Shown here: positions 4,974-59,809 of the stretch, piece after piece
How the letters are laid out: every line of letters begins with the position of its first letter
Numbering within the stretch: position 1 is the stretch's first letter
Assembly: GCA_034520885.1 (NCBI GenBank)
Contig: JAXHNE010000005.1
Location: 13,748-77,747, forward strand
Source of the DNA: Candidatus Saccharimonadota bacterium
GTDB taxonomy: Bacteria; Patescibacteriota; Saccharimonadia; Saccharimonadales; JAXHNE01
Direction: 5' to 3'
Length of the DNA: 64,000 nucleotides
Made by a program: the position numbers and the translations under genes
Notes under the pieces: generated by a model
What the model was told of the DNA's origin: nothing
Databases searched by the model: none
Seen by the model: only the letters and a program-made list of their open reading frames with translations

Positions 4974-5044
4974 CTTTGGATTGTTTGGTATATTGTGGGT
5001 ACGAACGCCGCCGGGCGTACGACTTAAAGCAGAGGGAGCAAAAG

Positions 5045-6409: not shown

Positions 6410-6597
6410 TTTTGGAAGGTGGAAGATGGTAGGTGGAAGATGGAATTCATATTTTAGTACTTGGTTTTTGGCAAGTGGTCGTGAAAGTCTACTACTGGGT
6501 ATGCGTAAGTTTGGAAGGTGGAAGATGGTAGGTGGAAGATGGCGGTTGGGTGCTAACACTCTTTACTCTTTGCTCTTTGCTCTTTGCTCACACCTGT
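6400..6597. repeat. 44-bp direct repeat including the last dnaA codons, plus heptamer tracts
   Basis: gtatgcgta-N2-tttggaaggtggaagatggtaggtggaagatgg occurs at 6400-6443 and 6499-6542 (2 mismatches). The first copy contains the dnaA codons TAT GCG TAG. The internal words are ggaaggt ggaagat ggtaggt ggaagat (period 7). They are followed at 6568-6597 by ctcttta ctctttg ctctttg ctctttg ctcac. Confidence 0.8.
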
Positions 6598-8039: not shown

Positions 8040-8473
8040 ACTTCAGCAAGTTGAAAGTGCAAAGCTTAAAGACTAAAGTTTTAGTATGAAGATAAATTCG
8101 TTCGAAGATATATTGGCTTGGAAAAAAGCCAAAGACCTTACGGTGGCGGTGTATAAAACCACCAAAAGCAACAAAGACAATGGCTTCAACAGCCAACTAC
8201 AAAGAGCCGCGGTGTCGATAATGAATAATATTGCTGAGGGGTTTGAGAGACAAAGCAACAAAGAGTTTAAAAAGTTTTTATATATAGCGAAGGGTTCTTG
8301 TGGTGAAGTGAGGTCAATGTTGCGGCTCGGCCAAAGCTTAGAGACGATAAACGAAGATTCCGGCAAGATTTTAATTGACCAGTCAATCGAGATTTCCAAA
8401 CTATTGTCAGGATTAATAAAGAAACTATGAAAACTTTCTACTTTATAAACTTTAAGAACTTTAAACTAAACGC
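8040..8473 (+). mobile_element. Putative heptamer-armed cassette 1 carrying a four-helix-bundle gene
   Basis: The left arm (8040-8085) is built of aagNNNN heptamers: aagttga aagtgca aagctta aagacta aagtttt. The right arm (8431-8473) is built of the complementary NNNNctt words: aaacttt ctacttt ...aactt taagaactt. The cassette begins 1 nt after the dnaN stop and ends 1 nt before the recF ATG. Confidence 0.55.
8086..8430 (+). CDS. Four-helix-bundle protein (23S rRNA intervening-sequence protein / Avd-like family)
   Basis: 114 aa. Family motif QLQRAAVSIMNNIAEGFERQSNKEFKKFLYIAKGSCGEVRSML. Three further paralogs lie in this window. Confidence 0.85.
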   Translation: MKINSFEDILAWKKAKDLTVAVYKTTKSNKDNGFNSQLQRAAVSIMNNIAEGFERQSNKEFKKFLYIAKGSCGEVRSMLRLGQSLETINEDSGKILIDQSIEISKLLSGLIKKL

Positions 8474-9526
8474 ATGATTTCAACATTGAGCCTCAAGCAA
8501 TTCAGGTCTTATCATGACGCTTCATTTGAGTTTGAGCCCGGGGTCAACATCATCGTCGGGCCGAATGCCAGCGGGAAGACGAATTTACTGGAGGCGATTT
8601 TGGTGTTAGCCAACGGGAGGTCGTATCGCGCCAAAGACCGGGAGTTACTGCGAACCGGCCAAGAATGGGCACGTTTGGACGCGCTCGCGGATAAAACGCC
8701 GCGCACGCTTAAACTGCAAACCAAAGCCGATAGCGCGCGGGTGGAAAAGGTTTTGGAGGTGGACGGCGTAGCCAAAAAACGCCTTACACTCCAGGACACG
8801 GTACCGGTGGTTTTGTTCGAACCCACCGACTTGCAACTCTTGACTGGTTCCCCCGCCCGGCGGCGAAGCTTTTTGGATACGCTCCTGAGCCGCAGCGAGC
8901 CGGATTTCGCCCGGCAACTACGGATTTACGAACGCAGCCTCGCGCAGCGCAATACGCTGCTTAAAACCGGTCATATGAGCAAGGACGAGCTGTTCGTGTG
9001 GAACGTGCGGCTTAGTGAATCCGGCGGTAAAATTATTGCGTCGCGCGCGGAGCTAATCAAGCGAATGAACACGGAGATAAACGGCCATTATAAAGACGTC
9101 GCGCACGAGGACAAACACATCACCGTGGCTTACCAAACCGACGTGAGCGCGCATCACGGGACGCAGTTAATGGAGTTGCTGGAAAAAAACATAAAACTGG
9201 ACGAAAAACGGGGGTTTACCAGCGTGGGACCGCACCGAGATGACATGTTGGTGGAGTTCGAAGGGCGGCCAGTGACCGAAACCGCTTCCCGCGGGGAGGT
9301 GCGCACCCTGGTGCTGGGGTTCAAAATGCTGGAACTTTCCATTATTGAAGCGTCACGCGGGCAAAAACCGCTCTTGCTACTGGACGACGTTTTTAGCGAA
9401 CTGGACGGCTCCCGCCGCAAAGCGCTAACGGATTTTTTGAAAGATCACCAAACCTTCATCACCACCACCGACGCCGACGTCGTCGTAGACCACTTCATGA
9501 AAAAAACCAACGTCATCGCGCTTTAG
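8474..9526 (+). CDS. recF: DNA replication and repair protein RecF
   Basis: Walker A GPNASGKTNLLEAI, an SMC-like signature, and Walker B LLLLDDVFSELD. Confidence 0.95.
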   Translation: MISTLSLKQFRSYHDASFEFEPGVNIIVGPNASGKTNLLEAILVLANGRSYRAKDRELLRTGQEWARLDALADKTPRTLKLQTKADSARVEKVLEVDGVAKKRLTLQDTVPVVLFEPTDLQLLTGSPARRRSFLDTLLSRSEPDFARQLRIYERSLAQRNTLLKTGHMSKDELFVWNVRLSESGGKIIASRAELIKRMNTEINGHYKDVAHEDKHITVAYQTDVSAHHGTQLMELLEKNIKLDEKRGFTSVGPHRDDMLVEFEGRPVTETASRGEVRTLVLGFKMLELSIIEASRGQKPLLLLDDVFSELDGSRRKALTDFLKDHQTFITTTDADVVVDHFMKKTNVIAL

Positions 9527-12197: not shown

Positions 12198-14763
12198 TGG
12201 TAAAGTACGCTCCTGCTGCTTCGACCGCCGCTTCCTCCAGGAGGCAAGGGTTGGCAATCCTTTTTTCTTCCAATCCAGTGTAGGGGTTTTCATTTCCTTC
12301 GCCGGACTCTTCCCATCGTTCTTTGTACTCTTCGCAGCTTTCTTCGGTTAATTGATCGGGGTTTCGAGTAAAGGCGGGATCATTCTGGCTATAGCCGTAC
12401 CGTGTAATTCCAAAGGCGTTTATTGCCAGTTGCTGTTCGGCCAGTGAATCCGCCCCCACACTGCCGGTAAAAGCATTCCTTAAGTTCGCCTTGAAACCAT
12501 TCATTATTCCGAAGATCGCGCCAGTGCCCTGAGTTTGACCAATGGGTATAGAACCAACCAGGCCGCTGGCGAGTGATTGAGGGTGCTCAAGGCTTGCGAG
12601 GCGCGTAAGTAAGTCTTCTTTACGGAAGTTTTGACGTTGTTGCTCCAACTGTTCCTTCGTTATTTTAGCGTACTCTTCGTCGCTAATAACCGGGGCGCCC
12701 AGACCGTAAGGTTGGCCGGATTCGTCATATCCGCCCTCGGCGAATTCCGCCGATGTCACATCAGCGCCCGCTATGACTCCGTCCAACTTGACACGCGCCG
12801 GGCTGTCTTCTTGTACGGGGAGCGGAAAGACGTAACTAAATACCCATGTAAGAAAGGTGTCGAACAGGTTTTTAGCCCACTCTTCGAATGTATCGTAACC
12901 ACGAATATTGGATACCAAACCAAAGACGACACTTCCTATTGAGCTCAGGACGAAGTCTACAGCACCAACTATCCTTTCAAGGAAAAAGCGATAATCTGCT
13001 GGGCAAGGAGCGTTAATTTCTACAACAATTTCAACGCCTGGTGGACTTGTTACGCAGTCATCCAACGTATTTACTGCGCTGGCCACTCTATCGACCACCG
13101 GATTGTCCCGAAGCTTCTCTACCTCGAATCTATCCCCCGGGCCTCTAACAATCTTCTTTTCATCGCACACGTGATCACCTCTGTCTATCGGTTCTCCGTC
13201 CTGACAAGTGTATTCCTCGTCGGATTGTGCATGCACCGTTGAACTTCCGAGGAAGGCGACGTCATTGTTTTGTTGATTGGAATAGGCGCGCCACAATTTA
13301 CTTTTTTCAGCACCATCAAGGTCACTCAAAGCCGCTCCAAGTTCATTCAAGTCTACTTCGTGAGATTTTGTCTCGTCATTCAATGAACGAAAACCAGTAT
13401 AAATTTCTCTGTATTGTTCAGCAGCCAAAGCCGAATGGAACCGACTAAGTGCATCGTCATCTATAGCCCGGTCAAAATCATCAGCCAAAAGAGCCATGGA
13501 CGCAACAAAGTATAATTGTCCTGCCACAGGAATTTTAGTCGCTGCAAGCCGAGCCGAACTATCCTTCATGACCTTTGCCAACAATTTTTCGAGGACATAA
13601 CTGCTCACAGTTCCCCTGCTTCTACCAAGAGGTTTTCCATTCTCGTCTGTTCCACGAAAATGCTTTATAATGTCATTTCTGTCTTCCTCGGAAAGGTTGT
13701 TTCTGTCAAGGTCTCTTTCCCGCAAGTCGTTGGGGCCACAAGAGTTTGCGCGGCTTCCGATGTTCCTGTCGATAGCGCAGGTAAATATGAGGCCATACTT
13801 ACTAGAAAAAGGATATACAAACCTGCTTACGAATCTGTACTTATATCTCGTTCGTGCGCTTGCACTCCGGTCTTCCAGGTTATCTCTCGTGTCGCAAGCC
13901 CAAAAACACCAAAGCCTGACGTCGTGTTTTCGCTGGAGGTATTTACGGATTGAGCGGCGCTCCATGACCTGATAGATCTTTGTTTCTTGCCGTAAAAAAC
14001 GGTTCATTTCACGGCCGAAATCCCTCCTCCCCCTGTCGGTTACGATATTCCTGAATTTTCCGTCAACGTCCCTGCTTAAGTCGATTTCACTCCTGAGTTT
14101 GGTATCGTATAGGCGATGTCGAGTAATGCCGGTATCACTGTCTTGTTCCGTTCTGATTTCTATACCGTAGTTATCAAATAACTTTTGCTCGACTCGTGCG
14201 TCGCGCCATTGATTGAACAAGTTACCAGCGATACCTGCCCCCCTATAGGTATATCTGCAGTCGAGAGACACTGTCTGAGTACAGGTATTGAGCTGAGTCA
14301 TATAGGACACCATATATCTTTCCATGAGATGCCCCGCCCGGGCTTCAACGGCGTTGGCGGCAACAGCAAACGCTTTTTGGTTGATATTCTGCATAAAGTG
14401 TTCGAGCTTGAGTGCTGGGAGGGTCAATACCGATATGAGCACACCCCCGCCCACGAAAAGGCCGATAACTCCTCCTCCGGCTTTTCTGCGGCGGGTCCAG
14501 AACTTTTTCTTATTGGCACCACTTCCGTCATCTTTAAATAAGCTTTGCTCTTCTTCGCCTCCAGTGTCTTTACGAGGTTCAGCACCTTCTTCCTTTTCAG
14601 CGATTTCGTTAGGCGAGAGTGATCTTTGGCCGATATCCTCCGCCGCTCCGCTGTGGGCTTCGCGGTCCATGGCCTCTTCTTCATCGGGAGAAATACCGGT
14701 AATACCCCTTAATTCATCATTCGAGGTCCCCTTTTTTTGTCGTTGATCGTCGTAGACTGGCAT
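12190..14763 (-). CDS. Large T4SS-associated membrane protein, function unknown
   Basis: 857 aa. Acidic cytoplasmic N-terminus, a TM segment (GGGVIGLFVGGGVLISVLTLPAL) and a large exported region with a second hydrophobic patch. Lies between the virB4-like gene and the hydrolase. No family recognised. Confidence 0.6.
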   Translation of the reverse strand: MPVYDDQRQKKGTSNDELRGITGISPDEEEAMDREAHSGAAEDIGQRSLSPNEIAEKEEGAEPRKDTGGEEEQSLFKDDGSGANKKKFWTRRRKAGGGVIGLFVGGGVLISVLTLPALKLEHFMQNINQKAFAVAANAVEARAGHLMERYMVSYMTQLNTCTQTVSLDCRYTYRGAGIAGNLFNQWRDARVEQKLFDNYGIEIRTEQDSDTGITRHRLYDTKLRSEIDLSRDVDGKFRNIVTDRGRRDFGREMNRFLRQETKIYQVMERRSIRKYLQRKHDVRLWCFWACDTRDNLEDRSASARTRYKYRFVSRFVYPFSSKYGLIFTCAIDRNIGSRANSCGPNDLRERDLDRNNLSEEDRNDIIKHFRGTDENGKPLGRSRGTVSSYVLEKLLAKVMKDSSARLAATKIPVAGQLYFVASMALLADDFDRAIDDDALSRFHSALAAEQYREIYTGFRSLNDETKSHEVDLNELGAALSDLDGAEKSKLWRAYSNQQNNDVAFLGSSTVHAQSDEEYTCQDGEPIDRGDHVCDEKKIVRGPGDRFEVEKLRDNPVVDRVASAVNTLDDCVTSPPGVEIVVEINAPCPADYRFFLERIVGAVDFVLSSIGSVVFGLVSNIRGYDTFEEWAKNLFDTFLTWVFSYVFPLPVQEDSPARVKLDGVIAGADVTSAEFAEGGYDESGQPYGLGAPVISDEEYAKITKEQLEQQRQNFRKEDLLTRLASLEHPQSLASGLVGSIPIGQTQGTGAIFGIMNGFKANLRNAFTGSVGADSLAEQQLAINAFGITRYGYSQNDPAFTRNPDQLTEESCEEYKERWEESGEGNENPYTGLEEKRIANPCLLEEAAVEAAGAYFTNE

Positions 14764-15155
14764 TATTGAGTCCTGATTTTTGAGTTTTGTGTCTTGAGTG
14801 ATTTAAGAAGCCCGCTCAGTATCTTGGATATTTCATCGGTATTCTCCACCAGTCTATAATAGTCCTCAGTCTTGAAGTACTCAAGACTTCTTCCGAGTTC
14901 AAGCATAGATTCAACTTCGGCAGCAGAACCTTTGGCAATCAAGAGAAAGTTGGAAAAAGCCTTTGGGCTTCTTCTGGAGTGGCCTTCGGCTATATTGTTC
15001 ATAATCGAGACGGACGCTCTTTGTATCTGATCACGGAAGGAAAAGTCTTTGTTATTTTGCAGTAGTCCATATATTTCAACGCGTAAATGACGAGCTTTTT
15101 GCCAAGCCTTGATGTCTCGAAACGACTGCCCGGTGTTTTTGTTTACTTTGCTCAT
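14763..15155 (-). CDS. Four-helix-bundle protein (23S rRNA IVS protein / Avd-like family)
   Basis: 130 aa. Motif QIQRASVSIMNNIAEGHSRRSPKAFSNFLLIAKGSAAEVESML. Its stop shares 1 nt with the ATG of the downstream 857-aa gene (TAATG). Confidence 0.85.
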   Translation of the reverse strand: MSKVNKNTGQSFRDIKAWQKARHLRVEIYGLLQNNKDFSFRDQIQRASVSIMNNIAEGHSRRSPKAFSNFLLIAKGSAAEVESMLELGRSLEYFKTEDYYRLVENTDEISKILSGLLKSLKTQNSKIRTQ

Positions 15156-15196
15156 GGCTTTTGCTCAATACTCATCACTCACTACTCACAACTCAT
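14763..15196 (-). mobile_element. Putative heptamer-armed cassette 2 carrying a four-helix-bundle gene
   Basis: The right arm (15156-15196) reads gctcaat actcatc actcact actcaca actcatt (actcNNN). The left arm (14766-14810) reads ttgagtc ctgattt ttgagtt ttgtgtc ttgagtg (NNNgagt, the complement). The arm cores atcactca...aactca are shared. The left arm supplies the last codons of the gene (KSLKTQNSKIRTQ). Confidence 0.55.
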
Positions 15197-17122: not shown

Positions 17123-17144
17123 AAGACAACCCCCCGGGACTCTA

Positions 17145-17234
17145 AAGTCTGAAATCTGAAATGTGAAACCAGAAACAAATCTGAAATCTGAAATGTGAAA
17201 CCAGAAACAAATCTGAAATCTGAAATGTGAAACT
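17145..17234. repeat. 31-bp tandem repeat (about 2.8 copies) built of heptamers
   Basis: aaatctgaaatctgaaatgtgaaaccagaaac is repeated head-to-tail at 17146, 17177 and 17208 (the last copy is partial). It sits between the virB4 start and the stop of the four-helix-bundle gene. Confidence 0.9.
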
Positions 17235-17636
17235 TCATGATGAATTCCTCACAATCGCTCCGAGAATATTCATTAATTCGGTTGCTTCCTTCTGCAGTCT
17301 CGACTGTTCTTTACGATTTAATTCATTTGCTGTAATAAGTTCTAACCAGTAAATTGTTTCTCTCGCTTCTTTTTTTGCGATCTTAACCCGCATAATAAAA
17401 TCTTTCTTGCTTAAGGATTGATTTGCCTCCAAGTAGTTCGCACCAACGGAACCGGAAGAGCGAACGAGTTGCTTGCCGTCCTCTCTGTTACCGGCATTTT
17501 TAGGAAGTGCCCCCACGAATAAACGAACGTCTTTTGCGAACTTTTTAGTTCTATCTTCAAGATCAAAACGTTTCTGATTTCGTGCTTCGTGCTTGTTTCT
17601 GATTTCGTGCTTCGTGCTTCGTGCTTCAGTTTTCAT
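17235..17636 (-). CDS. Four-helix-bundle protein (23S rRNA IVS protein / Avd-like family), subtype B
   Basis: The start is set at ATG 17636, in an ATGA overlap with the upstream stop. Motifs RFDLEDRTKKFAKDV and QLVRSSGSVGANYLEANQSLSKKDFIMRVKIAKKEARET. The track ORF's 60-aa N-terminal extension overlaps the upstream gene and is rejected. Confidence 0.8.
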   Translation of the reverse strand: MKTEARSTKHEIRNKHEARNQKRFDLEDRTKKFAKDVRLFVGALPKNAGNREDGKQLVRSSGSVGANYLEANQSLSKKDFIMRVKIAKKEARETIYWLELITANELNRKEQSRLQKEATELMNILGAIVRNSS

Positions 17637-18547
17637 GAATATATATCCTTTTCCAGCTGTGGCTGGGCGGCTTGGCCTTCGCCCTTGGTGACAACTGGCG
17701 CTGTCATGGTGTTGAAGTCTTTCAGTTGCTGGCGGGTCGCGGTGTCCGGATTGTAGGTGTCGTAGTACAGTTCGATCAGCTCTTGCGTGTCCAGCGGGAT
17801 TCCCTGGATGCCGCATTGCTGCAACCCGTTTAACACCGCTTGTACGCGGTTACGCAGTTCGTCCTTGGCTTTGTTGAGCGTGGCTTCGTTGATGGTGACG
17901 TGCACGTCCTTGGGCTTGAAAATATGGGTCAGCCCCTGGAAGAATCCCCTACTACTTTCCACGGCCTGCTTTAGATCACCTTCCGGAAAGTACGGAATTA
18001 CCACGTAAAAATTCTTGTCCATAATGTTGGTTTGCAGGGAAAGGTTGTCGATGTAGGTAATGTAATCCTCCATTAACAGTGATAGCAGCATATTGTCATG
18101 CTCGCCACGGATTTTATCCAGCTTTTGGATATAGGGGGTCATGTCCACTTTGCGTGATCGCAGGAAAATTTGTATCGGAAAATATAAGGAGTTTAAAAAT
18201 CCCTGGTAACTGTATTCCACCGCATCCCGTTCTTCCGGGCTCATGAGATCGAAGTTGATGGAGCGGACGGCCACTACGGAGCGAAAGGAGCCGTCGTTCA
18301 TAATCACGATGCCATCGCGCACTTCGGCAATCTGTAAGGAGTTCTGGGTGCTATTAGGGTTGCCGGCCGGAGGTTGTTCCTTAGATTTTTGAGGTGTTGG
18401 TTGCTGGCCTTGAGATTGTTGGGGTGGCGGCTGTTGCCCCGGCGCTTGTTGTTGGCCGGGGTTTTGGGGCGCGTAGGCCTGCCCCGGCTGCGATTGAGCG
18501 GGAGGCTGCTGGGGATTGTTTTGTTGGCCGGGGTTTTGGGGATTCAT
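17633..18547 (-). CDS. T4SS-associated protein with a Gln/Pro-rich N-terminus, function unknown
   Basis: 304 aa. The first ~70 aa are low complexity (NPQNPGQQNNPQQPPAQ...). The segment DGSFRSVVAVRSINFDLMSPEERDAVEYSYQGFLNSLYFPIQIF is reminiscent of the N-terminal region of VirB4-type proteins, but this resemblance is weak and judged only by eye. Confidence 0.55.
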   Translation of the reverse strand: MNPQNPGQQNNPQQPPAQSQPGQAYAPQNPGQQQAPGQQPPPQQSQGQQPTPQKSKEQPPAGNPNSTQNSLQIAEVRDGIVIMNDGSFRSVVAVRSINFDLMSPEERDAVEYSYQGFLNSLYFPIQIFLRSRKVDMTPYIQKLDKIRGEHDNMLLSLLMEDYITYIDNLSLQTNIMDKNFYVVIPYFPEGDLKQAVESSRGFFQGLTHIFKPKDVHVTINEATLNKAKDELRNRVQAVLNGLQQCGIQGIPLDTQELIELYYDTYNPDTATRQQLKDFNTMTAPVVTKGEGQAAQPQLEKDIYS

Positions 18548-18802: not shown

Positions 18803-19287
18803 ATAGCTGAAAGCTAAATGCTAAGAGCTCAAAGCTGCGCAATTTCCAATTTCCAATTTCTAATTTTCATTCAATTCTCAACCGCCATTTTTTAAACTAG
18901 TGGTAATTTTTTGGAAGATTAATACCAACTCATGAACTTCTTGCCATAATGATCGTAAATCAGCTTTTTTCGAAGGCGTTGCGGTACTAAGCATACGGAG
19001 CCAATGCTGTGTTTCTTGAGCCTCTTTTTTACAGATATGAATTTTATTACGGAAATCTTTTTTAGAGCTGGCCCCGTTCGCTTCCATATAGTTTGCTCCA
19101 ATGCTTGTCGAGGAACGAACCAACTGATTAATCAAAGGCTTGTTTATATTATTTTGTTTAATAACTTTACAGAGCTTAATTACATCTTCCCCAAACCTTG
19201 ATGTTCTTTCCTCTAAATCAAATTTATTGTCTTTTTGAGCCATTGAAGATTGATTGTAAATTGTAAAATTGAAAACTAAAAATTAAC
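18803..19287 (-). mobile_element. Putative heptamer-armed cassette 4 carrying a four-helix-bundle gene
   Basis: The left flank begins with agctgaa agctaaa tgctaag agctcaa agctgcg, then caatttc caatttc caatttc taatttt cattcaa. The right flank (19244-19287) reads ttgaaga ttgattg taaattg taaaatt gaaaact, whose reverse complement gives the caattt-type words. Confidence 0.55.
18878..19243 (-). CDS. Four-helix-bundle protein (23S rRNA IVS protein / Avd-like family), subtype B
   Basis: 121 aa. Motifs KFDLEERTSRFGEDV and QLVRSSTSIGANYMEANGASSKKDFRNKIHICKKEAQET. Confidence 0.85.
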   Translation of the reverse strand: MAQKDNKFDLEERTSRFGEDVIKLCKVIKQNNINKPLINQLVRSSTSIGANYMEANGASSKKDFRNKIHICKKEAQETQHWLRMLSTATPSKKADLRSLWQEVHELVLIFQKITTSLKNGG

Positions 19288-43650: not shown

Positions 43651-43832
43651 TACTTTTTACTTATTACTTTCCCCATCTTCTATCTTCCATCTTCTATCTA
43701 CCAAATTCCAACTTCCATCTTCCAACTCCTAGCACCTAAACCCTATCCATGAACTATGAACCCAGAACTCTTTCCTCAATCCTCAATCCCCGATCTCCTA
43801 TCTACTATCTACCAACTTCCACCTTCTATCTG
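43651..43832. repeat. About 180-bp orphan heptamer-periodic pyrimidine-rich tract
   Basis: The tract reads ccatctt ctatctt ccatctt ctatcta ccaaatt ccaactt ccatctt ccaactc ctagcac ctaaacc ctatcca tgaacta tgaaccc agaactc tttcctc aatcctc aatcccc gatctcc tatctac tatctac caacttc caccttc. No complementary arm lies nearby. Confidence 0.85.
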
Positions 43833-43851
43833 CGCCTCTGTTAAATGATAA

Positions 43852-43889
43852 TAATACTAGAATTAATACTAGTATTAATTCTAGTATTA
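43852..43889. repeat. Perfect 38-bp AT-rich palindrome overlapping the valS stop codon (possible bidirectional terminator)
   Basis: taatactagaattaatact|agtattaattctagtatta. The two halves are exact reverse complements, and 43887-43889 is the valS TAA. Confidence 0.8.
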
Positions 43890-46544
43890 ATTATCGAATC
43901 GTTTGATTTCGTTTTTCAGGTTTTTCAGCAGAGCTCGGTTCTCTTCCAGTTGGTCTTTGGTTTGCTGTACTACCGTTTTCGGGGCGTTTTTCACGTAGGA
44001 TTTATTGTCCAGCCGGCCTTCCAGTTGCTTGATTATCTTTTGGTAGTCTTCCGCCCTGCCCTTCAGGTTATCAACGTATTTCACGACGGTTCGTTTGTCG
44101 ATATCCAGCCAGGCTTCGTACGGCGTTTCCGTTAAGTTGAGCCCGGAGCCGTCCTTTACCTCCTTGACCGTTTCCAGCCCGGCCAGGCGGCTGATGAGCG
44201 TCGCGTTGTTGTCAATAAACTCTTCACCCCCGTGGTACAAGCCGATGTTCTTTACCTTGAGTTCGTTCTTGATGTGGCGCACCTCGGAAATAATTACTTT
44301 AATGTCCTCGAACGTTTTGGCCTGTTCTTCATCGGCCTTCCGAGCTTTCGGCCATCGGCTTACGGCCAGCAAGTCTTTATCGGGGTGCAGGGTTTGCCAA
44401 ATGGTTTCGGTCACGAACGGAGCGAACGGATGCAGCATTTTAAGGCACGTCTCCAGCACGTAGGAAAGCATATCAAGGTTTTCATGGACTTTACTGGCCT
44501 CGATGTACCAATCGGCCACATCGTCCCACACGAAGTGATACAGCGTCTCGTAGGCTTCAGCGAACCGGTAGTTATCTAGCGAATCGGAAACTGAAGTAAT
44601 ACAATAGTTCATGTTATGAAGTATCCAATGATCGGCCAAAGACTGGGGTTGAGGTTTTTTAGTGGTGTGCCCTTCCAGCTTACCCTCTACGTAACGGGCG
44701 ACGTTCCAAAGCTTGTTACAGAAATTACGCGCTGATTCGATGCGCCCCCTGCTCCAGTTCATGTCCTGTCCTGCGGCTACTCCGGCAATTAACCCCATGC
44801 GCAACGCATCGGTACCGTATTCTTCAATAACGTCAAGAGGATTTACGATAGATTCCGGCCGGCTTTTGCTCATTTTTTTGCCGTCTTCAGCTCGCACCAT
44901 CCCATGAAGGTAAACCGTTTTAAATGGTACTTGTCCGGTCATATAAGTGGTCGAAAGTATCATTCTGGCGATCCAAAAGAAGATGATATCCCAGCCGGAC
45001 TCCATAACACTGGTTGGATGATAAGCTTGAAAATCCGGACTTTTTTCCAGTACTTGCTCAAGAGTAAGGTCTTGGTTGGCGGCTAGCTCCGGATCAACTA
45101 GGGTACTCCATGTCCAGAGTGCCGAGCTAAACCAAGTGTCTAGCGTGTCCGCGTCTTGTTTCCAGGTGTGGAACCCCTCCGCTCCATCGTCGACCGGTGG
45201 TCGTATGCCAACATAGGTTTCTGTTTCGCCTTCTGCGTTCGTGCGATACCAGGCGGGAATACGGTGCCCCCACCAGATTTGTCTGGAGATACACCAGTCG
45301 CGCAAATTATCAATCCAGTGGAAGTATATTTTTTCAAATCTACTGGGCACAATCTCGATATCCTTGGCTTTTATAACGTCCTGCATTACTTCTTTCAGAC
45401 TGTGTTTTTTGCCCTTCCACTCCACTGCTTTTTTGTTAACATCAACGAACCACTGTAAGCGTATCTGGGGCTCGATCACCCCTTTCCCTCGTTCGTTCAC
45501 TGCCATGCTGTGGGTGTAGTTGTCGTTGACTTTAATAAGAAGCCCTTTTTTATCGAGCTTTTCTACGATTTTTGGACGCGCCTCTTCAATGGGTATACCG
45601 GCGAACTCCTTAGCAATAGGTAGGAGTTTTCCATGAAAGTCAATAATCTGCTCCTTGTCTAATCCGTGTCTTTCTGCAATTTCAAAATCAGTCGCGTCGT
45701 GCCACGGTGTGATCGTCATTACCCCTGTTCCAAACTCCGGATCGATCGCTTCGTCTTTTATGATAGTGGCGGTTACTTTGCCGTTTATCCACTCCGCCTC
45801 AAAGGTATCGCCATGCTTGTATTCTGAGTAGCGTTTGTCATCCGGGTGCATCACGACGTACTTATCGCCGAACTTGGTCTCCGGCCGTGCGGTACCAATC
45901 TCGAACGGACCGTATTTAAAGGTATAGAATTTGGCCTTTTTTTCGACTCTTTCCACTTCGTCGTCTGAAACGTTCGTTTCAAGGTTAGGATCCCAGTTAA
46001 CAATGCGACTACCCCTGTAAATGAGCCCATCGTTGTACATACGAATAAAAGTTTCGTTGACGCAACGATTGAGTGCACCATCAAGTGTGTAGCGTTGTCG
46101 CGTCCAGTCAGCACTAAAACCAAGTGCTCGCATTTGCTCCACCATTGTGCCGCGACTACTGGCTACGAATTCTTTAGTCCGACGAAGAAATTCTTCTCTG
46201 CCCACCTCGTGTTTGTTTGTGTCCTCGTCAGCAAGCTTCTTTTCGATAACCGCGTTTACCGCAATTGCCGCATGATCAGTTCCAGGGAGCCATAGCACAT
46301 CCTTCCCCTGTAATCGTTGGTAGCGCGCCATAACGTCCTGAAGGCTATACATCGCGTGCCCAAGACTTAAAGTACCCGTTTCGTTGGGGGGCGGCATACT
46401 AATACTAAAGCGCTCGGCTTTTTTATCCGGCCGAGCAATAAATACTTCGCTGCGCTCCCAGAGAGCGTAGATGTCTTTCTCGTAGAGTCGAGGCTCATAT
46501 AACTTTGGCAGCTTCACGAATAACACTTCCCTTTTTACATTCAA
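43887..46544 (-). CDS. valS: Valine--tRNA ligase
   Basis: 885 aa. Class I HIGH-type (PPPNETGTLSLGHA) and KMSKS (KMSKS present) motifs, plus a C-terminal coiled coil. The track start is TTG 46544; GTG at 46517 (VKLPKLYEP) is an alternative. Confidence 0.95.
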   Translation of the reverse strand: MNVKREVLFVKLPKLYEPRLYEKDIYALWERSEVFIARPDKKAERFSISMPPPNETGTLSLGHAMYSLQDVMARYQRLQGKDVLWLPGTDHAAIAVNAVIEKKLADEDTNKHEVGREEFLRRTKEFVASSRGTMVEQMRALGFSADWTRQRYTLDGALNRCVNETFIRMYNDGLIYRGSRIVNWDPNLETNVSDDEVERVEKKAKFYTFKYGPFEIGTARPETKFGDKYVVMHPDDKRYSEYKHGDTFEAEWINGKVTATIIKDEAIDPEFGTGVMTITPWHDATDFEIAERHGLDKEQIIDFHGKLLPIAKEFAGIPIEEARPKIVEKLDKKGLLIKVNDNYTHSMAVNERGKGVIEPQIRLQWFVDVNKKAVEWKGKKHSLKEVMQDVIKAKDIEIVPSRFEKIYFHWIDNLRDWCISRQIWWGHRIPAWYRTNAEGETETYVGIRPPVDDGAEGFHTWKQDADTLDTWFSSALWTWSTLVDPELAANQDLTLEQVLEKSPDFQAYHPTSVMESGWDIIFFWIARMILSTTYMTGQVPFKTVYLHGMVRAEDGKKMSKSRPESIVNPLDVIEEYGTDALRMGLIAGVAAGQDMNWSRGRIESARNFCNKLWNVARYVEGKLEGHTTKKPQPQSLADHWILHNMNYCITSVSDSLDNYRFAEAYETLYHFVWDDVADWYIEASKVHENLDMLSYVLETCLKMLHPFAPFVTETIWQTLHPDKDLLAVSRWPKARKADEEQAKTFEDIKVIISEVRHIKNELKVKNIGLYHGGEEFIDNNATLISRLAGLETVKEVKDGSGLNLTETPYEAWLDIDKRTVVKYVDNLKGRAEDYQKIIKQLEGRLDNKSYVKNAPKTVVQQTKDQLEENRALLKNLKNEIKRFDN

Positions 46545-47542: not shown

Positions 47543-48766
47543 CTACATGCTCAGATTTGGTTTGATATCGAGCGTGTACGGGTCGGCTTGGGGTTGATTA
47601 TGCATCATCTTGAAGCACCCTAATGTAGCAATCATGGCGCCGTTGTCGGTCATGAGCTGGGGGTCGGTGTATTCGATTGGTATCGGTAGGCGTTCGGCAA
47701 GCTGGCGGCGGAGTTCCGGGTTGGCGGCCACGCCGCCGCCGATAACGACGCTCTCGGGCTGAAACTCCTCATAAGCCGCCGCTACCTTATCTACTACTGT
47801 TTCTATAGCAGTTCGTTGGAAACTGGCGGCAATATCGGCCTTCTGGGCTTCTGAGAGCCGTTCCGCGATCTTATGGGAAGGGAAGTGGTGATCCATGCCG
47901 ATTTCCTTTTGGGCGAGCCGTAAAACGGCCGTTTTGAGCCCGGAGAACGAATAATTGTATTTATCTTGGAGCTTGGCTTTCGGGAGGTCATAGGCATATG
48001 GATCGCCGTCTTTAGCTTTTTGGCCGATACTCGGGCCGCCGGGGTAGGGGAGGCCGAGCAATTTGGCGACTTTATCGAAGGCTTCGCCAATGGCGTCATC
48101 GGTGGTCTGCCCCAAAAGCGTGTAGTCAAAGTGATCACGCCAGATAACGATCTGCGAATGCCCGCCACTGACGATAAGCCCCAGCATTGGGAATGCCGGG
48201 CTCTTAGCCCTTAGCCTATAGCTATCAGCTTTTAGCTTTGAGCTTTCAGCTATTCCCGTAAGGAAATTGGCATAGATGTGTGCTTCCACATGGTTGATGG
48301 CGTAGAGCGGTTTGTTTTTGGTGATGGCATAGGTGCGCGCGGCCATCACGCCGACCAATAGTGAACCGCCCAACCCCGCACCATGCGTCACGGCGATAGC
48401 GTCAATTTCATCCCACGGATTAGATTCCGTTGTCCGTTGTCTGTTCTCTGTGATCTGTTTTCTGTCCTCTGTTGTCCGTTGTCTGTAATCTGTGTTCTGT
48501 AATCTGTGTTCTGTAATCTGTGTTCTGTGCCCCTTGCTCCCTGCTCCCTGCTCCGTGTTCGCCACGAACGCATCATGCAGTGCTTTATTTATGACCGGCT
48601 GGATGCTTTCGATATGGCTGCGGGCGGCGATTTCCGGCACTACGCCACCGTACGCCACGTGCAAATCCATGCTGGACAGCACCGCGTTGGACAGCAGTTT
48701 TTGACCGTCTTCCACGACCGCGGCCGCCGTTTCGTCGCAACTCGTTTCAATTCCCAGTATTTTCAT
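47543..48766 (-). CDS. tsaD: tRNA N6-adenosine threonylcarbamoyltransferase TsaD, with two in-frame low-complexity insertions
   Basis: MKILGIETSCDETAAAVVEDG..., VPEIAARSHIE, GLIVSGGHSQ and the C-terminal conserved blocks. At 407 aa it is longer than usual because of heptamer-tract insertions at 48424-48561 and 48200-48253. Confidence 0.9.
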   Translation of the reverse strand: MKILGIETSCDETAAAVVEDGQKLLSNAVLSSMDLHVAYGGVVPEIAARSHIESIQPVINKALHDAFVANTEQGAGSKGHRTQITEHRLQNTDYRQRTTEDRKQITENRQRTTESNPWDEIDAIAVTHGAGLGGSLLVGVMAARTYAITKNKPLYAINHVEAHIYANFLTGIAESSKLKADSYRLRAKSPAFPMLGLIVSGGHSQIVIWRDHFDYTLLGQTTDDAIGEAFDKVAKLLGLPYPGGPSIGQKAKDGDPYAYDLPKAKLQDKYNYSFSGLKTAVLRLAQKEIGMDHHFPSHKIAERLSEAQKADIAASFQRTAIETVVDKVAAAYEEFQPESVVIGGGVAANPELRRQLAERLPIPIEYTDPQLMTDNGAMIATLGCFKMMHNQPQADPYTLDIKPNLSM

Positions 48767-55333: not shown

Positions 55334-55600
55334 ATGGCCGTAAACATCAAGCCACTTGGCGAGTACGTGGTGGCGCAAACCGAAGAAGCGCCCAGCAAAA
55401 CCGCCAGCGGGTTGTATATCCCCAAAGAAGCGCAGGAAAAACCCAAGATTTCCAAGGTTTTGGCCGTGGGCAAGGACGTCAAAGAGGTAAAAGTGGGCGA
55501 CCGCATTATTTACGGCGGTTTCAGCAACACCGAAGTCAACCATGACGGCGAAGATTACATGCTTATTAAGGAAGAAAACATCTACGCGGTAGTTAAATAG
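55334..55600 (+). CDS. groES: Co-chaperonin GroES
   Basis: 88 aa. MAVNIKPLGEYVVAQTEEAPSKTASGLYIP... AGGAGG lies upstream. Confidence 0.95.
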   Translation: MAVNIKPLGEYVVAQTEEAPSKTASGLYIPKEAQEKPKISKVLAVGKDVKEVKVGDRIIYGGFSNTEVNHDGEDYMLIKEENIYAVVK

Positions 55601-55657
55601 CTAAAAGCTTAAAGCCGAAAGCTCTGAGCTTATGGCTCTTGGCTCTTGGCTCAAGCG
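55598..55657 (+). repeat. Cargo-less heptamer-periodic hairpin in the groES-groEL spacer
   Basis: The tract reads tagctaa aagctta aagccga aagctct gagctta tggctct tggctct tggctca agc. The A-rich left half pairs with the T-rich right half (about 16 of 22 positions). This includes G-U pairs that form only in the sense-strand RNA. Confidence 0.7.
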
Positions 55658-58460: not shown

Positions 58461-58835
58461 ATGATGAGTGCAGCTTCACAGCAAGAGATACAAACCATGC
58501 TTGACCAAATGCGTACGCGCATGCAAGATCGAATGGCCACGAGACAGGACGTGCAACGGGCGACGGATGACGCCAGGGACCGCATGATCAGTTACATGCA
58601 CGACTATTTGCAGCAAAACCAGCAACAGTTCGTACGGCAACTGGATGACCGGACGAAAACGTATAAATCGCAGATAACGAATCTGGAATACCGGATCCAG
58701 TCGCTGGAACAAGAAATTCGTAACGCTAACCAGATACTAAACCAAATGGCCCAAAAGCAACAAAGCGTTATTATTCCGCATGTTCAGGAGGCGGTGAGTA
58801 ATCAACATAACTACCGCTATGTCCAGGAAGGCTAG
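58461..58835 (+). CDS. Hypothetical coiled-coil protein (Q-rich)
   Basis: 124-aa ORF with GGAGG upstream and a heptad-like composition. No family recognised. Confidence 0.5.
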   Translation: MMSAASQQEIQTMLDQMRTRMQDRMATRQDVQRATDDARDRMISYMHDYLQQNQQQFVRQLDDRTKTYKSQITNLEYRIQSLEQEIRNANQILNQMAQKQQSVIIPHVQEAVSNQHNYRYVQEG

Positions 58836-59186
58836 ATACTAGAGGTTAGAGGTTAGACGTTAGAGGCTAGACGTTAGAGATTGGAGGTTAGGATTTAGGA
58901 GTTCGTAGCTAGGCAGCTTAGCGGTTAGCAAAAACACAATGGGAAGGACGTAAATAGCGAGTTATCAGGTTTTTCAAACCCCATGGTAATGGAGCGTAAG
59001 TTCACTACGGGTAGGCTGTCACGCTGCCAATTAAACACCGGGTTGGTCACCAGGCTATTGATAAATAGAGGCCGCGGAAACACTTTCTTGGCTTTTACCT
59101 TCTACCCAACCTCCAACGTCTAACGTCTAGCGTCAAATTTCTAGCCTCTAGCCTCTAACGTCCAACCTCTAACGTCTTAGTCTCTA
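58836..59186. repeat. Heptamer-armed inverted repeat enclosing a 168-bp non-coding core
   Basis: The left arm (58836-58929) reads tagaggt tagaggt tagacgt tagaggc tagacgt tagagat .... The right arm (59098-59186) reads aacctcc aacgtct aacgtct ... agcctct agcctct aacgtcc aacctct aacgtct. The reverse complement of the left arm contains tagcctctaacgtctaacctcta, versus tagcctctaacgtccaacctcta in the right arm (about 24 of 25 nt). Confidence 0.85.
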
Positions 59187-59254
59187 TTTTTGCCGCTGGG
59201 CAAGCCCAGCAGCAAATCCTGATAGCAAGTAGTAAGCAATCAGATTACGCGCTA

Positions 59255-59809
59255 TCAAGACTTTTGCTGCTGGGTAAAGTAATTGATTTCGTTGATAACG
59301 TCCAAAAGTGCTTGGGCGCGGGCTTTGTCGTTTTCGATTTTTTGGGCGGCTTCGTAGGCTTCTTTTAACAGGGACTGATCATCCGTGGCCTGAATCATCA
59401 TCATGGTGGTGCGGAACTTTTCTTCCGCGGTTTGGTCCAAATGTGACACTAACGGGGAAAGTTGAGACAAAGCTTGCTGCTTAATCTCTACCAGATTGCC
59501 GGAAGGTGCCGGTTCGTCTTCCGCTTGCGGGGCGGGGTCGGGCGTGCCGTGATCGGTCACCATGTGCTCGGTGTCTTCGTGGTGCGGAATGTTATCCTGC
59601 GGCGCATCGGGTTGTTGTGCGTCCGTTGTAGCCGGTGCCGGATTGGCGTCCACCGGTTGTTGAGTCGCCGGCTGGAACGGTGAGTTTTGCCCGCCCATGG
59701 TCGGCAAATCCGGCGCGCCCCCGTTGTTTTGTGGCTGAGGTTCACCAAAATCCTGGAGGTCGTTTTGTTGTTGAGCATCGTTATTCTTTGAATTTCCAAA
59801 CATTTCCAC
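59255..59809 (-). CDS. Hypothetical protein with a Q/P-rich N-terminus and a helical C-terminus
   Basis: 184-aa ORF. No family recognised. Confidence 0.5.
   Translation of the reverse strand: MEMFGNSKNNDAQQQNDLQDFGEPQPQNNGGAPDLPTMGGQNSPFQPATQQPVDANPAPATTDAQQPDAPQDNIPHHEDTEHMVTDHGTPDPAPQAEDEPAPSGNLVEIKQQALSQLSPLVSHLDQTAEEKFRTTMMMIQATDDQSLLKEAYEAAQKIENDKARAQALLDVINEINYFTQQQKS

What the first reader, a model, noticed from the sequence alone, without database searches (positions are those of the whole stretch)
58836..59186. Heptamer-armed inverted repeat with a 168-bp non-coding cargo (possible ncRNA or decayed cassette)
Arms of about 90 bp built of tagaggt/tagacgt words (left) and their complements acctcta/acgtcta (right) can form a long stem with a near-perfect ~25-bp core. 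They enclose 58930-59097, which has no convincing ORF on either strand. This is the same architecture as the four-helix-bundle cassettes but with a different or lost cargo. It could be an RNA gene presented on a long stem, a cassette that lost its gene, or the minimal mobile unit.
Basis: seen in the sequence. Interest (0 to 1): 0.55.

Follow-up and report, generated by a model that had tools for sequence, protein, structure and literature searches.

The report
ORF-less heptamer-armed palindrome in a 3′ UTR
A 354-bp insertion, so far seen only in this Saccharibacteria lineage, sits right after a gene's stop codon and consists of two inverted arrays of 7-base repeats around a 185-bp spacer that shows no sign of being a gene. 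It is an unusually large example of the poorly understood inverted heptamer-repeat pairs already known in Xanthomonas, not a new RNA gene.

Summary
Twelve TAGAGGT/TAGACGT-type heptamers (58833-58916) face twelve complementary units (59102-59186). The fold is 8 sd better than shuffles on either strand. The arms share their unit order, so they are inverted copies of one array.

The 185-bp spacer gave no sign of being a gene. It is no more structured than shuffles, has no Rfam or Pfam hit and no PF05635 trace, and has no real protein or DNA relative in any collection searched.

The element starts at the stop codon of a 124-aa gene, between convergent genes. It is absent from that site in the four closest relatives. 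The window is a Saccharimonadales genome unusually rich in period-7 arrays. It holds four PF05635 four-helix-bundle (4HB) genes with inverted heptamer arms and a cargo-less heptamer hairpin between groES and groEL.

Best reading: an ORF-less, lineage-specific heptamer-armed palindrome of the kind described as inverted heptameric repeat pairs in Xanthomonas. It would act, if at all, as a long 3′-UTR hairpin. "RNA gene" and "decayed 4HB cassette" are not supported. "Arms are the unit, cargo is incidental" fits best. The finding itself is of moderate interest. The tight link between heptamer arms and 4HB genes in the background is more interesting.

The parts
58461..58835 (+). Upstream host gene (124-aa coiled-coil protein; NCBI calls it U5L95_02190, 123 aa from the second Met). 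Its stop codon TAG (58833-58835) is also the first three bases of the left arm.
   Evidence: ORF list. Exact match to P0001. Weak SMC-like coiled-coil hits only. Relatives end at the same codon but with TAA.
58833..58916 (+). Left arm: about 12 heptamer units (TAGATAC TAGAGGT TAGAGGT TAGACGT TAGAGGC TAGACGT TAGAGAT TGGAGGT TAGGATT TAGGAGT TCGTAGC TAGGCAG). TAG recurs every 7 nt, which places a stop in all three frames.
   Evidence: Sequence, TRF, the repeat finder D1 and I1-I9, alignment of the arms.
58869..58891 (+). Best-paired core of the stem, left side (partner 59155-59177): 23 nt, 91% complementary.
   Evidence: the repeat finder I9.
58917..59101 (.). It has no detectable gene, RNA family, promoter or homologue.
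   Evidence: Folds with z = +0.71 and +0.27. Rfam gave nothing. No Pfam hit in six frames at E<=10. The 4HB HMM scored negative bits. HMMER against 1.84 billion representative proteins gave one spurious hit, to a repeat protein. The word search with the minus-frame peptide found no candidate. No hits in phages, plasmids, loci, metagenome contigs or viral contigs. No promoter-like site.
59102..59186 (+). Right arm: about 12 units complementary to the left arm (ACCTCTA/ACGTCTA words). Read on the minus strand it is again TAGAGAC TAAGACGT TAGAGGT TGGACGT TAGAGGC TAGAGGC TAGAAAT ...
59187..59276 (.). A T5 run directly after the right arm, then nested hairpins (59189-59201/59204-59216 and 59205-59216/59263-59274). 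They overlap the 3' end of the convergent gene. This stretch is probably what remains of the shared terminator region. It lies outside the element.
   Evidence: the repeat finder I12 and I13. Relatives have one simple A-run/hairpin/T-run terminator here. The only Rfam hit is a chance mir-259 match at E = 0.2.
59255..59809 (-). Convergent downstream host gene (184 aa, conserved in Saccharibacteria, no family assignment).

Best explanation
This is an ORF-less heptamer-armed palindrome: a 354-bp DNA segment (58833-59186) so far seen only in this Saccharimonadales lineage. It consists of two inverted copies of one roughly 12-unit heptamer array around a 185-bp spacer that is not a gene. It lies immediately after the stop codon of a 124-aa gene, and in fact supplies that stop codon. 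It sits upstream of the terminator-like hairpins shared with the convergent gene, so it is most likely transcribed as part of that gene's 3' UTR.

Shown: the anatomy; the common origin of the two arms; absence of the element from the orthologous site in the four closest relatives available; the lack of any coding, RNA-family or homology signal in the spacer; and the fact that the same genome and its relatives carry the same kind of arms around PF05635 four-helix-bundle (4HB) genes, around bare hairpins and around short non-coding spacers.

Inferred: the arms are the functional or selfish unit and the spacer is incidental DNA. The arrays arise by slippage of 7-nt units. They become inverted pairs either by hairpin-templated copying (template switching) or by copying from another locus. 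In RNA the arms form a 60-70-bp imperfect duplex. That duplex would be a substrate for a double-strand-specific RNase such as RNase III, or a 3'-end barrier. The element would then be tolerated, or act as a 3'-UTR processing or stability hairpin, in the way 23S rRNA intervening sequences are tolerated because their stems are cut out. It belongs with the inverted heptameric tandem-repeat pairs described in Xanthomonas, whose function is also unknown.
For: Anatomy and significance.

Arms share unit order: 8 of 3000 permutations reach the observed score.

Site empty in relatives: L001 and L002 have 90-96 nt with a simple terminator. L082 (77% aa identity) has 62 nt and L083 has 55 nt. The stop codon is at the same codon position but is TAA in relatives.

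Spacer carries no signal.

Same class elsewhere:
- The window's groES|groEL spacer is a cargo-less heptamer hairpin that also starts at a TAG stop. L001 has a hairpin with different words at the same site.
- L018 has heptamer arms around the terminator hairpin in the equivalent convergent intergenic region. L036 has (ACTACCT)x9 there.
- L194 has an ORF-less, weak heptamer-type inverted repeat (115-nt spacer) exactly where the window has 4HB cassette D. Its right arm is 23/25 identical to the groES|groEL element of the same MAG.
- Short-spacer or cargo-less heptamer hairpins occur in L094, L165/L185 and L171.

Literature: Xanthomonas has 70-75 convergent GGGAATC heptamer pairs per genome. They are mostly intergenic, on average 28 nt from the nearest 5' neighbouring ORF, and the pairs I read in S2 Table A (part 1 of 12) have 21-67 nt spacers, including one between groES and groEL (PMC4692102).
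Against: There is only one copy of these arm words in the 64-kb window, and the rest of the genome could not be read, so dispersal of this element is unproven. I saw no target-site duplication.

The 185-nt spacer is larger than in any known ORF-less pair (0-115 nt here, 21-67 nt in the Xanthomonas pairs read), and its origin is unexplained.

Mismatches between the arms show no bias towards G-U pairs on either strand: 5 G-U pairs possible only in + RNA, 5 only in - RNA, and 10 transversions. So nothing shows selection on an RNA stem, and a purely neutral DNA palindrome fits equally well.

No transcription data exist. No RNase III gene lies in the window, and the rest of the genome is unknown. 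The closest relative with an empty site is only 77% identical in the neighbouring protein, so the time and mode of insertion are unresolved.
Confidence: 0.6

Rival explanations
1. A non-coding RNA gene displayed on a long stem. The spacer would be a functional small RNA released by cleavage of the heptamer stem.
For: The stem is very stable and would be a good double-strand RNase substrate. A 64-codon open frame and small ORFs do not exclude an RNA product. Intervening-sequence-like excision is an established mechanism in 23S rRNA (my knowledge).
Against: The spacer alone folds no better than shuffles (z = +0.7 and +0.3). No Rfam family reaches even E<=10. No promoter-like site. No homologue in 80 Saccharibacteria loci, 80 4HB loci, 29 viral loci, phages, plasmids, or word scans of metagenome and viral contigs. 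The site is empty in all four relatives.
Confidence: 0.07
2. A decayed or internally deleted PF05635 four-helix-bundle cassette. The arms would be what remains of a gene cassette whose ORF was lost.
For: Four intact cassettes with inverted heptamer arms lie in the same window. In relative L194 an ORF-less inverted repeat occupies the exact site of the window's cassette D. That shows ORF-containing and ORF-less states alternate at one site.
Against: The 4HB HMM gives -1 to -3 bits on the cargo frames, no better than random control windows. Pfam PF05635 gives no hit at E<=10. blastn to the window's cassettes finds nothing. The arms are 75-86% alike, so a gene decaying only by substitutions over the same period would still be recognisable. 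The arm words differ from those of all four cassettes. The arms here are longer and better paired than those of the intact cassettes C and D. The spacer is 185 nt, against 374-462 nt.
Confidence: 0.12
3. A non-autonomous mobile element (MITE- or REPIN-like). The heptamer arms would be terminal inverted repeats, moved in trans by a protein encoded elsewhere, possibly the 4HB proteins.
For: Presence/absence polymorphism at the site. 4HB cassettes are gained, lost and replaced at the same junctions among relatives. Two ORF-less elements in one MAG share arms at 23/25 identity. In the 4HB-D family the arms travel with the gene in fixed polarity.
Against: Single copy in the window. No target-site duplication. 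The arm words are specific to each locus in this genome, unlike MITE or REP families. The same convergent intergenic site acquired arrays with unrelated words in L018 and L036, which favours local origin. PF05635 has no known transposase or nuclease activity (my knowledge). No transposase was noticed next to the element.
Confidence: 0.15
4. A small protein gene: the 46-aa ORF on the + strand (58983-59123) or the 52-aa ORF on the - strand (58925-59083) is the cargo.
For: Both ORFs exist, and a 64-codon frame is open across the whole spacer.
Against: An open frame of 64 codons is expected in roughly 1 in 4 such spacers over six frames (my estimate). I saw no Shine-Dalgarno sequence ahead of either start. 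No homologue by HMMER against 1.84 billion representative proteins apart from a repeat-inflated false hit. The word search found no candidate for the minus-frame peptide. No Pfam hit. Neither ORF was called as a gene in the Logan annotation.
Confidence: 0.04

Closest known systems
Inverted (convergent) pairs of heptameric tandem repeats in Xanthomonas (GGGAATC)n, and the related cyanobacterial heptamer repeats (GGGGA(C/T)T, STRR) - Rehm et al. 2015, PMC4692102
   Same: Tandem 7-nt units. Two arrays on opposite strands close together, able to form a stem-loop. Mostly intergenic and only a few nt from the end of the neighbouring ORF, sometimes overlapping it. Found between convergent genes and inside operons, including groES|groEL. 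Array length and sequence differ even between close relatives. Function unknown.
   Different: Xanthomonas and Nostoc reuse one G-rich word genome-wide and that word has G-quadruplex potential. Here every locus has its own word, and TAGAGGT has no G-tract. The Xanthomonas arms I read are usually 4 units with 21-67 nt spacers. Here there are about 12 units per arm and a 185-nt spacer. The phylum is different (Saccharibacteria/CPR).
PF05635 / TIGR02436 four-helix-bundle ('23S rRNA intervening sequence protein') cassettes with inverted heptamer arms, as seen in this window and in 80 metagenome loci
   Same: Inverted arms built of heptamer words. Insertion directly after a stop codon or between cistrons. 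Presence/absence among close relatives.
   Different: There is no PF05635 ORF or remnant. The spacer is about half as long. The arms are two to three times longer and much better paired. The arm words are unrelated to those of the four cassettes in the window.
Intervening sequences (IVS) of bacterial 23S rRNA
   Same: An extra segment that folds into a long stem. Both ORF-less forms (about 100-200 nt) and forms carrying a PF05635 ORF exist. They are tolerated because RNase III removes the stem-loop from the transcript (my knowledge). PF05635 ORFs are reported in CPR rRNA insertions (PMC11270868).
   Different: This element is not in an rRNA gene. Excision was not tested. To my knowledge IVS stems are not built of heptamer arrays.
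REP/REPIN and MITE elements
   Same: Short, ORF-less, palindromic intergenic DNA that forms hairpins in 3' UTRs and shows presence/absence polymorphism.
   Different: Those families have many near-identical copies per genome, a defined transposase (RAYT or an IS transposase) and, for MITEs, target-site duplications. None of these was found here.

Membership tests
Inverted heptameric tandem-repeat pairs (Xanthomonas/Nostoc type, STRR-like) | Tandem arrays with a 7-nt period | tested here: met
   TRF finds period 7 with 7.4 and 9.0 copies. The periodicity scan finds 19 period-7 regions, against 0-1 for other periods.
Inverted heptameric tandem-repeat pairs (Xanthomonas/Nostoc type, STRR-like) | Two arrays on opposite strands in close proximity, able to form a stem-loop | tested here: met
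   Inverted repeat of 76 nt at 75%, with a 23-nt core at 91%. Fold z = -8. The spacer is 185 nt, longer than the 21-67 nt of the published pairs I read.
Inverted heptameric tandem-repeat pairs (Xanthomonas/Nostoc type, STRR-like) | Intergenic, within a few nt of the end of a neighbouring ORF | tested here: met
   The left arm starts at stop codon 58833-58835. The published average distance is 28 nt.
Inverted heptameric tandem-repeat pairs (Xanthomonas/Nostoc type, STRR-like) | One heptamer word reused at many loci of the genome, G-rich with G-quadruplex potential | tested here: not met
   The arm words occur only in this element within the window. The other arrays in the window use other words. 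TAGAGGT has no run of 3 or more G.
PF05635/TIGR02436 heptamer-armed four-helix-bundle cassette | A PF05635 ORF between the arms | tested here: not met
   Pfam on six frames at E<=10 gave nothing. A family HMM scored -1 to -3 bits, no better than random control windows.
PF05635/TIGR02436 heptamer-armed four-helix-bundle cassette | Inverted heptamer arms flanking the unit | tested here: met
   For the cassettes themselves.
PF05635/TIGR02436 heptamer-armed four-helix-bundle cassette | Arm-to-arm distance of about 374-462 nt | tested here: not met
   185 nt between the arms, or 265 nt by the array criterion used for the cassettes.
23S rRNA intervening sequence | Inserted in a helix of the 23S (or 16S) rRNA gene | tested here: not met
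   There is no rRNA in the window. The element lies between two protein genes.
23S rRNA intervening sequence | Stem-loop excised from the transcript by RNase III | not testable with these tools
   No transcript data. No RNase III signature in the window. The rest of the genome was not available.
MITE / REPIN-type non-autonomous mobile element | Multiple near-identical copies per genome | tested here: inconclusive
   One copy in the 64-kb window. A related MAG has two ORF-less elements with shared arms.
MITE / REPIN-type non-autonomous mobile element | Target-site duplication at the ends | tested here: not met
   The flanks are ...GAAGGC|TAGATAC...GTCTCTA|TTTTTGCC, with no direct repeat.
Known structured RNA family (Rfam) | Match to a covariance model, or structure beyond chance in the core | tested here: not met
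   No hit at gathering thresholds or at E<=10, apart from a chance mir-259 match outside the element. Core z-scores are +0.7 and +0.3.
Intrinsic terminator | A G+C-rich hairpin immediately followed by a U-run | tested here: inconclusive
   A T5 run (59187-59191) follows the right arm. However, the base of the stem is A/U-rich and the hairpin is 354 nt long. The terminator scan reported no site in or next to the element.

The most novel reading that the evidence does not exclude
Heptamer-armed palindromes may be a distinct class of selfish element in Patescibacteria and beyond. In that reading the periodic 7-nt arms are the recognised substrate, and the PF05635 four-helix-bundle proteins (relatives of the Avd proteins of diversity-generating retroelements) act on them, in cis for cassettes and in trans for ORF-less units like this one. 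This element would then be a non-autonomous member, analogous to a REPIN and its RAYT, and its long stem would be excised from the mRNA like an rRNA intervening sequence.
Probability: 0.12. Interest if true: 0.8.

Novelty: new variant of a known kind. Interest (0 to 1): 0.4.

Why it matters
On its own the element matters little. The spacer is not a new RNA gene, and annotators should treat it as a repeat-armed palindrome in a 3' UTR.

Its value is as one state in a series visible in this genome and its relatives:
- bare heptamer hairpins, for example between groES and groEL;
- heptamer arms with short non-coding spacers;
- heptamer arms around PF05635 four-helix-bundle (4HB) genes.

All of these sit directly after stop codons, and they are gained, lost or exchanged at the same junctions between close relatives. 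This links two long-standing puzzles: why heptameric tandem repeats are over-represented in some bacteria, and what the 23S rRNA intervening-sequence proteins do. It also offers Saccharibacteria, some of which are now cultivable and genetically tractable (PMC10633639, abstract seen), as a place to test whether the stems are processed by RNase III and whether the 4HB proteins bind them.

Tried and rejected
- **Rfam:** searched the whole window at gathering thresholds and the element at E<=10. Nothing relevant.
- **Core duplicated in the window?** No.
- **Core in public collections?** Nothing in 80 Saccharibacteria loci, 80 4HB loci, 29 viral loci, phage and plasmid collections, one 22-mer scan of metagenome contigs and two 20-mer scans of viral contigs.
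- **Core derived from the relatives' intergenic DNA?** Only 7-8-mers match, which is chance level.
- **Translated searches:** Pfam on six frames, a local 4HB HMM, HMMER against 1.84 billion representative proteins for the 64-codon + frame, and a word-indexed search for the minus frame. The single hit, P0012, is a tandem-repeat protein in which a 31%-identity stretch is counted four times. I rejected it as spurious.
- **Strand-biased G-U pairing as evidence for RNA-level selection:** none.
- **RNase III gene in the window:** none by signature motif.
- **Exact look-up of the 124-aa protein:** failed because NCBI calls the gene from the second Met.
- **Literature searches** for heptamer repeats together with intervening-sequence proteins returned nothing directly on that link.
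- **Arm word TAGASGT x3 in viral contigs:** 29 loci, but none shares the spacer. Several look like contig-end or very long simple arrays, so they say little about this element.
- **ORF-less stretches between arrays in L090 and L159:** these lie between directly oriented arrays and carry a promoter and a DnaA box, so they are not cargo of an inverted pair.
Full report
**1. What is there**

The sequence at 58833-59186 consists of three parts.
- A left array of about twelve heptamers: TAGATAC, TAGAGGT x2, TAGACGT, TAGAGGC, TAGACGT, TAGAGAT, TGGAGGT, then decaying units to 58916.
- A 185-bp spacer (58917-59101).
- A right array (59102-59186) that is the reverse complement of the same kind of units.

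The repeat finder gives inverted arms of 76 nt at 75%, 64 nt at 78%, and a 23-nt core at 91% (58869-58891 / 59155-59177). TRF finds period-7 arrays on both sides.

As RNA the element folds at -139.8 kcal/mol on the + strand and -130.8 kcal/mol on the - strand. These are 8.1 and 7.6 sd better than dinucleotide shuffles, and none of 100 shuffles matched either.

Aligning the left arm with the reverse complement of the right arm gives 64 matches in 85 columns. Identity is 86% in the outer 50 columns and 60% in the inner 35. The order of unit variants is shared: only 8 of 3000 permutations of the right arm's units score as well. The two arms are therefore inverted copies of one array, not two independent slippage products.

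A separate Logan assembly (L081, SRR26473340) has the element base for base. The arms are imperfect, which excludes a fold-back assembly chimera.

**2. Where it sits**

The window is from a Saccharimonadales (Saccharibacteria/TM7) genome. The PGI/PMI gene at 59921 has its best relatives, at 82-83% aa identity, in Saccharimonadales MAGs. The neighbouring protein is NCBI's U5L95_02190 from a 145-kb contig.

The element lies between convergent genes: a 124-aa coiled-coil protein (58461-58835, +) and a conserved 184-aa protein (59255-59809, -). The first heptamer begins with the TAG that terminates the 124-aa ORF. Relatives end at the same codon with TAA. A T5 run and nested hairpins (59187-59276) follow the right arm. 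So the element lies between the stop codon and what looks like the remnant of the shared terminator, that is, in the 3' UTR of the + gene. That last step is inference.

In the four closest relatives I could obtain, the same intergenic region is 55-96 nt with one plain terminator hairpin:
- L001 and L002, about 70% nt identity;
- L082, 77% aa identity in the 124-aa protein;
- L083, 68% aa identity.

The element is therefore specific to this lineage as far as it has been sampled.

**3. The spacer is not a detectable gene**

- Folded alone it is no better than shuffles on either strand (z = +0.71 and +0.27).
- Rfam gives nothing at gathering thresholds or at E<=10.
- No sigma-70-like promoter lies inside.
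- It is unique in the window.
- It has no blastn match in 1.33 Mb of other Saccharibacteria loci, in 80 4HB loci and 29 viral loci, in L193/L194, or in the phage and plasmid collections.
- A 22-mer is absent from the metagenome contigs, and two 20-mers are absent from the viral contigs.
- It does not resemble the relatives' intergenic DNA.
- None of the six reading frames hits any Pfam family at E<=10, including PF05635.
- A local HMM built from 83 four-helix-bundle (4HB) sequences scores -1 to -3 bits on the four cargo frames it reported, no better than random control windows. The same HMM picked up two further, divergent 4HB genes elsewhere in the window.
- The 64-codon open + frame was searched with HMMER against 1.84 billion representative proteins. 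The one hit (E = 2.4e-4) is a tandem-repeat protein in which a 31%-identity stretch is counted four times.
- The word search with the minus-frame peptide found no candidate.
- The small ORFs (46 and 52 aa) have no visible ribosome-binding site ahead of them. Neither was called as a gene in the Logan annotation.

**4. Context: a genome full of heptamer arrays**

Period-7 arrays are strongly enriched in the window: 19 regions, against 0-1 for periods 4-12. With neighbouring regions merged, the window has 13 arrays in 64 kb, against 10 in 1.33 Mb of other Saccharibacteria loci.

The window has four TIGR02436/PF05635 4HB genes: 8086-8430 (+), 14763-15155 (-), 17235-17585 (-) and 18878-19243 (-). 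Each is bracketed by inverted heptamer-type arms with its own words.

In the 80 PGI-anchored Saccharibacteria loci, tblastn with the two 4HB proteins of cassettes C and D found no relative. One of those MAGs does carry a classical-type 4HB cassette at another locus (L194).

In 80 metagenome loci carrying relatives of the 18878-19243 protein:
- I counted 142 period-7 arrays, against 0-3 for every other period from 4 to 12.
- 59 of 72 genes with enough flanking sequence have an adjacent array, 37 of them on both sides.
- About 40 loci show inverted arms 374-462 nt apart.
- The polarity is fixed, with CAATT-type words upstream (46 of 53) and AATTG-type words downstream (51 of 57).

In that family the arms are inherited with the gene.

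The present element has the same kind of arms, but they are two to three times longer and far better paired. Cassettes C and D fold with z of only -1.5 and -1.6. The arm-to-arm distance here is about half that of a cassette.

**5. Elements of this kind come and go at fixed junctions**

I compared the type IV secretion operon of the window with the two nearest MAGs.
- GCA_041600755.1 (L193) has no insert between the PrgI-like and TraC-like genes (37 nt) or between the TraC-like and VirB4-like genes (0 nt).
- GCA_038316995.1 (L194) has a different, classical-type 4HB cassette (40-nt arms, 75% complementary) at the TraC|VirB4 junction, where the window has cassette C.
- L194 also has an ORF-less, weak heptamer-type inverted repeat (31-nt arms at 77%, 115-nt spacer) exactly where the window has cassette D.

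That ORF-less element shares its arm words with a heptamer hairpin in the groES|groEL spacer of the same MAG. The right arms are 23/25 identical and the spacers are about 5 and 115 nt. So ORF-less units with shared arms and different spacers exist in one genome.

The window's own groES|groEL spacer (55598-55656) is a cargo-less heptamer hairpin that also begins at a TAG stop codon.

The equivalent convergent intergenic region has acquired unrelated arrays in two other lineages. L018 has heptamer arms around the terminator hairpin, and L036 has (ACTACCT)x9. This recurrent use of different words favours local origin. The shared arms in GCA_038316995.1 favour copying between loci. Both may occur.

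**6. Comparison with what is known**

Rehm et al. 2015 (PMC4692102) describe heptameric (GGGAATC)n repeats in Xanthomonas. They report 70-75 cases per genome of two arrays in convergent orientation, 89-93% of them intergenic and on average 28 nt from the nearest 5' neighbouring ORF. Examples lie between groES and groEL, atpA and atpG, and gltB and gltD. The pairs I read in S2 Table A (part 1 of 12) have 21-67 nt spacers. Array lengths vary between close species. No function is known.

This is the closest published kind. The present element meets its defining features: period 7, an inverted pair, and a position abutting an ORF end. It does not share the genome-wide reuse of one G-rich word, and its arms and spacer are several times larger.

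Repeat #15 in the same supplement overlaps the start codon of XCC0516. That protein is cited as a member of the 23S_rRNA_IVP (PF05635) family in PMC3936711. So the link between heptamer arrays and 4HB genes may extend beyond Patescibacteria. I found no paper that states this association.

PF05635 ORFs are reported inside rRNA insertions of CPR bacteria (PMC11270868). From my own knowledge, classical 23S intervening sequences include both ORF-less stem-loops of about 100-200 nt and ORF-bearing forms, removed by RNase III. That is the working analogy for how a long stem in a transcript is tolerated. Membership fails, because this element is not in an rRNA gene.

**7. How it most likely works**

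Shown: the element is an inverted duplication of a heptamer array around non-conserved DNA, inserted or grown at a stop codon in one lineage.

Inferred:
- The arms are the unit and the spacer is incidental.
- The transcript of the 124-aa gene carries a 60-70-bp imperfect duplex in its 3' UTR.
- That duplex is either cut by a double-strand-specific RNase, releasing the loop as a by-product, or serves as a 3' barrier.
- TAG in every heptamer gives stops in all three frames on both strands, so read-through translation cannot enter the element.

Against an RNA-level function: the 20 arm mismatches split into 5 G-U pairs possible only in + RNA, 5 only in - RNA, and 10 transversions. There is no sign of selection for pairing on either strand. 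A neutral or selfish DNA palindrome is equally compatible.

Because the arms still match at 75-86%, a PF05635 gene decaying only by substitutions over the same time should still be recognisable. Loss of a gene would therefore need a deletion plus replacement, for which there is no evidence.

**8. Verdict**

The architecture is right. The RNA-gene and decayed-cassette readings are not supported. The reading that the arms are the unit is the most compatible, although mobility of this copy is unproven.

I rate it a new variant of a known kind: inverted heptameric repeat pairs, here in Saccharibacteria, with locus-specific words, very long arms and a large spacer. The element itself is of moderate interest. 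The more interesting lead is the tight, polar association of heptamer arms with PF05635 genes and their turnover at fixed junctions.

Noticed in passing
window 47543-48766 (-), arrays at 48212-48255 and 48423-48563: The TsaD gene (TIGR03723, 358 bits) stays an intact 407-aa ORF but contains two heptamer arrays translated in frame, one of about 15 aa and one of about 47 aa. The profile match is split into two stretches around the larger insert. So heptamer arrays also invade the coding sequence of a gene that is normally essential.
   Followed up: partly
window 8040-8475, 14765-15196, 17139-17638, 18805-19287: Four PF05635/TIGR02436 four-helix-bundle (4HB) genes, each flanked by inverted heptamer-type arms with different words. 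Two of them (8086-8430 and 14763-15155) are of the classical NIAEG type and were missed by tblastn with the other two proteins.
   Followed up: yes
L084-L163 (80 metagenome loci): In relatives of the 18878-19243 4HB protein, 59 of 72 genes have an adjacent period-7 array (142 arrays, against 0-3 for other periods). Polarity is fixed at 5'-(CAATTTT)n-gene-(AAAATTG)n-3', and the arms lie about 374-462 nt apart. I found no paper describing this association.
   Followed up: yes
L193 3965-4000 and 4828; L194 3645-4000 and 4913-5377; window 17139-17638 and 18805-19287: In the type IV secretion operon (PrgI-like, TraC-like, VirB4-like genes), the same two intergenic junctions differ among the three closest genomes. 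Each is either empty, or holds a classical 4HB cassette, a different 4HB cassette, or an ORF-less heptamer-type inverted repeat.
   Followed up: yes
window 55598-55656; L001 6262-6330: The groES|groEL spacer is a cargo-less heptamer-armed hairpin that starts at the groES stop codon TAG. The nearest relative has a hairpin with different words at the same place, and L059 has none. Xanthomonas also has an inverted GGGAATC pair between groES and groEL (Rehm et al. 2015, S2 Table A, repeats 16 and 17).
   Followed up: partly
L001 6270-6325 and L194 3653-3829 (both from MAG GCA_038316995.1): Two ORF-less heptamer-armed inverted repeats at different loci of one genome share arm words. The right arms are 23/25 identical and the spacers are about 5 and 115 nt. 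This hints that arms can be copied between loci.
   Followed up: partly
Xanthomonas campestris XCC0516 (literature: PMC4692102 S2 Table A, repeat 15): A GGGAATC heptamer array overlaps the start codon of XCC0516, a PF05635 family member. The link between heptamer arrays and 4HB genes may therefore exist outside Patescibacteria.
   Followed up: no
L171 1537-2405 and 6303-6515; L165 10633-13834; L185: High-GC viral contigs carry TAGAGGT/ACCTCTA-type and TTAGCGG-type heptamer arrays as inverted pairs around one or two ORFs, and also as cargo-less hairpins. The same word forms very long arrays, or arrays at contig ends, in other IMG/VR contigs, including giant-virus MAGs (for example L176, 720 nt).
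   Followed up: partly
window 6411-6597: The last 10 nt of the 4949-6409 ORF plus a TGGAAGG/TGGAAGA heptamer array are directly duplicated 99 nt apart, followed by a CTCTTTG array. Two same-strand CCATCTT-type arrays and a palindromic 12-mer repeat lie at 43675-43891.
   Followed up: no
L090 163-450; L159 712-1082: ORF-less stretches between directly oriented heptamer arrays share three features on the minus strand: a consensus DnaA box (TTATCCACA), a near-perfect TTGACA-N16/17-TATAAT promoter (TATACT in L159) and, in L090, a roughly 70-nt transcript ending in a terminator hairpin. No Rfam family matches.
   Followed up: partly
window 59501-59554 compared with L081 1441-1500: The only differences between the MAG and the Logan assembly over 3.8 kb are one substitution and a 6-nt in-frame indel (a CGTGAT duplication) in the 184-aa gene.
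   Followed up: no
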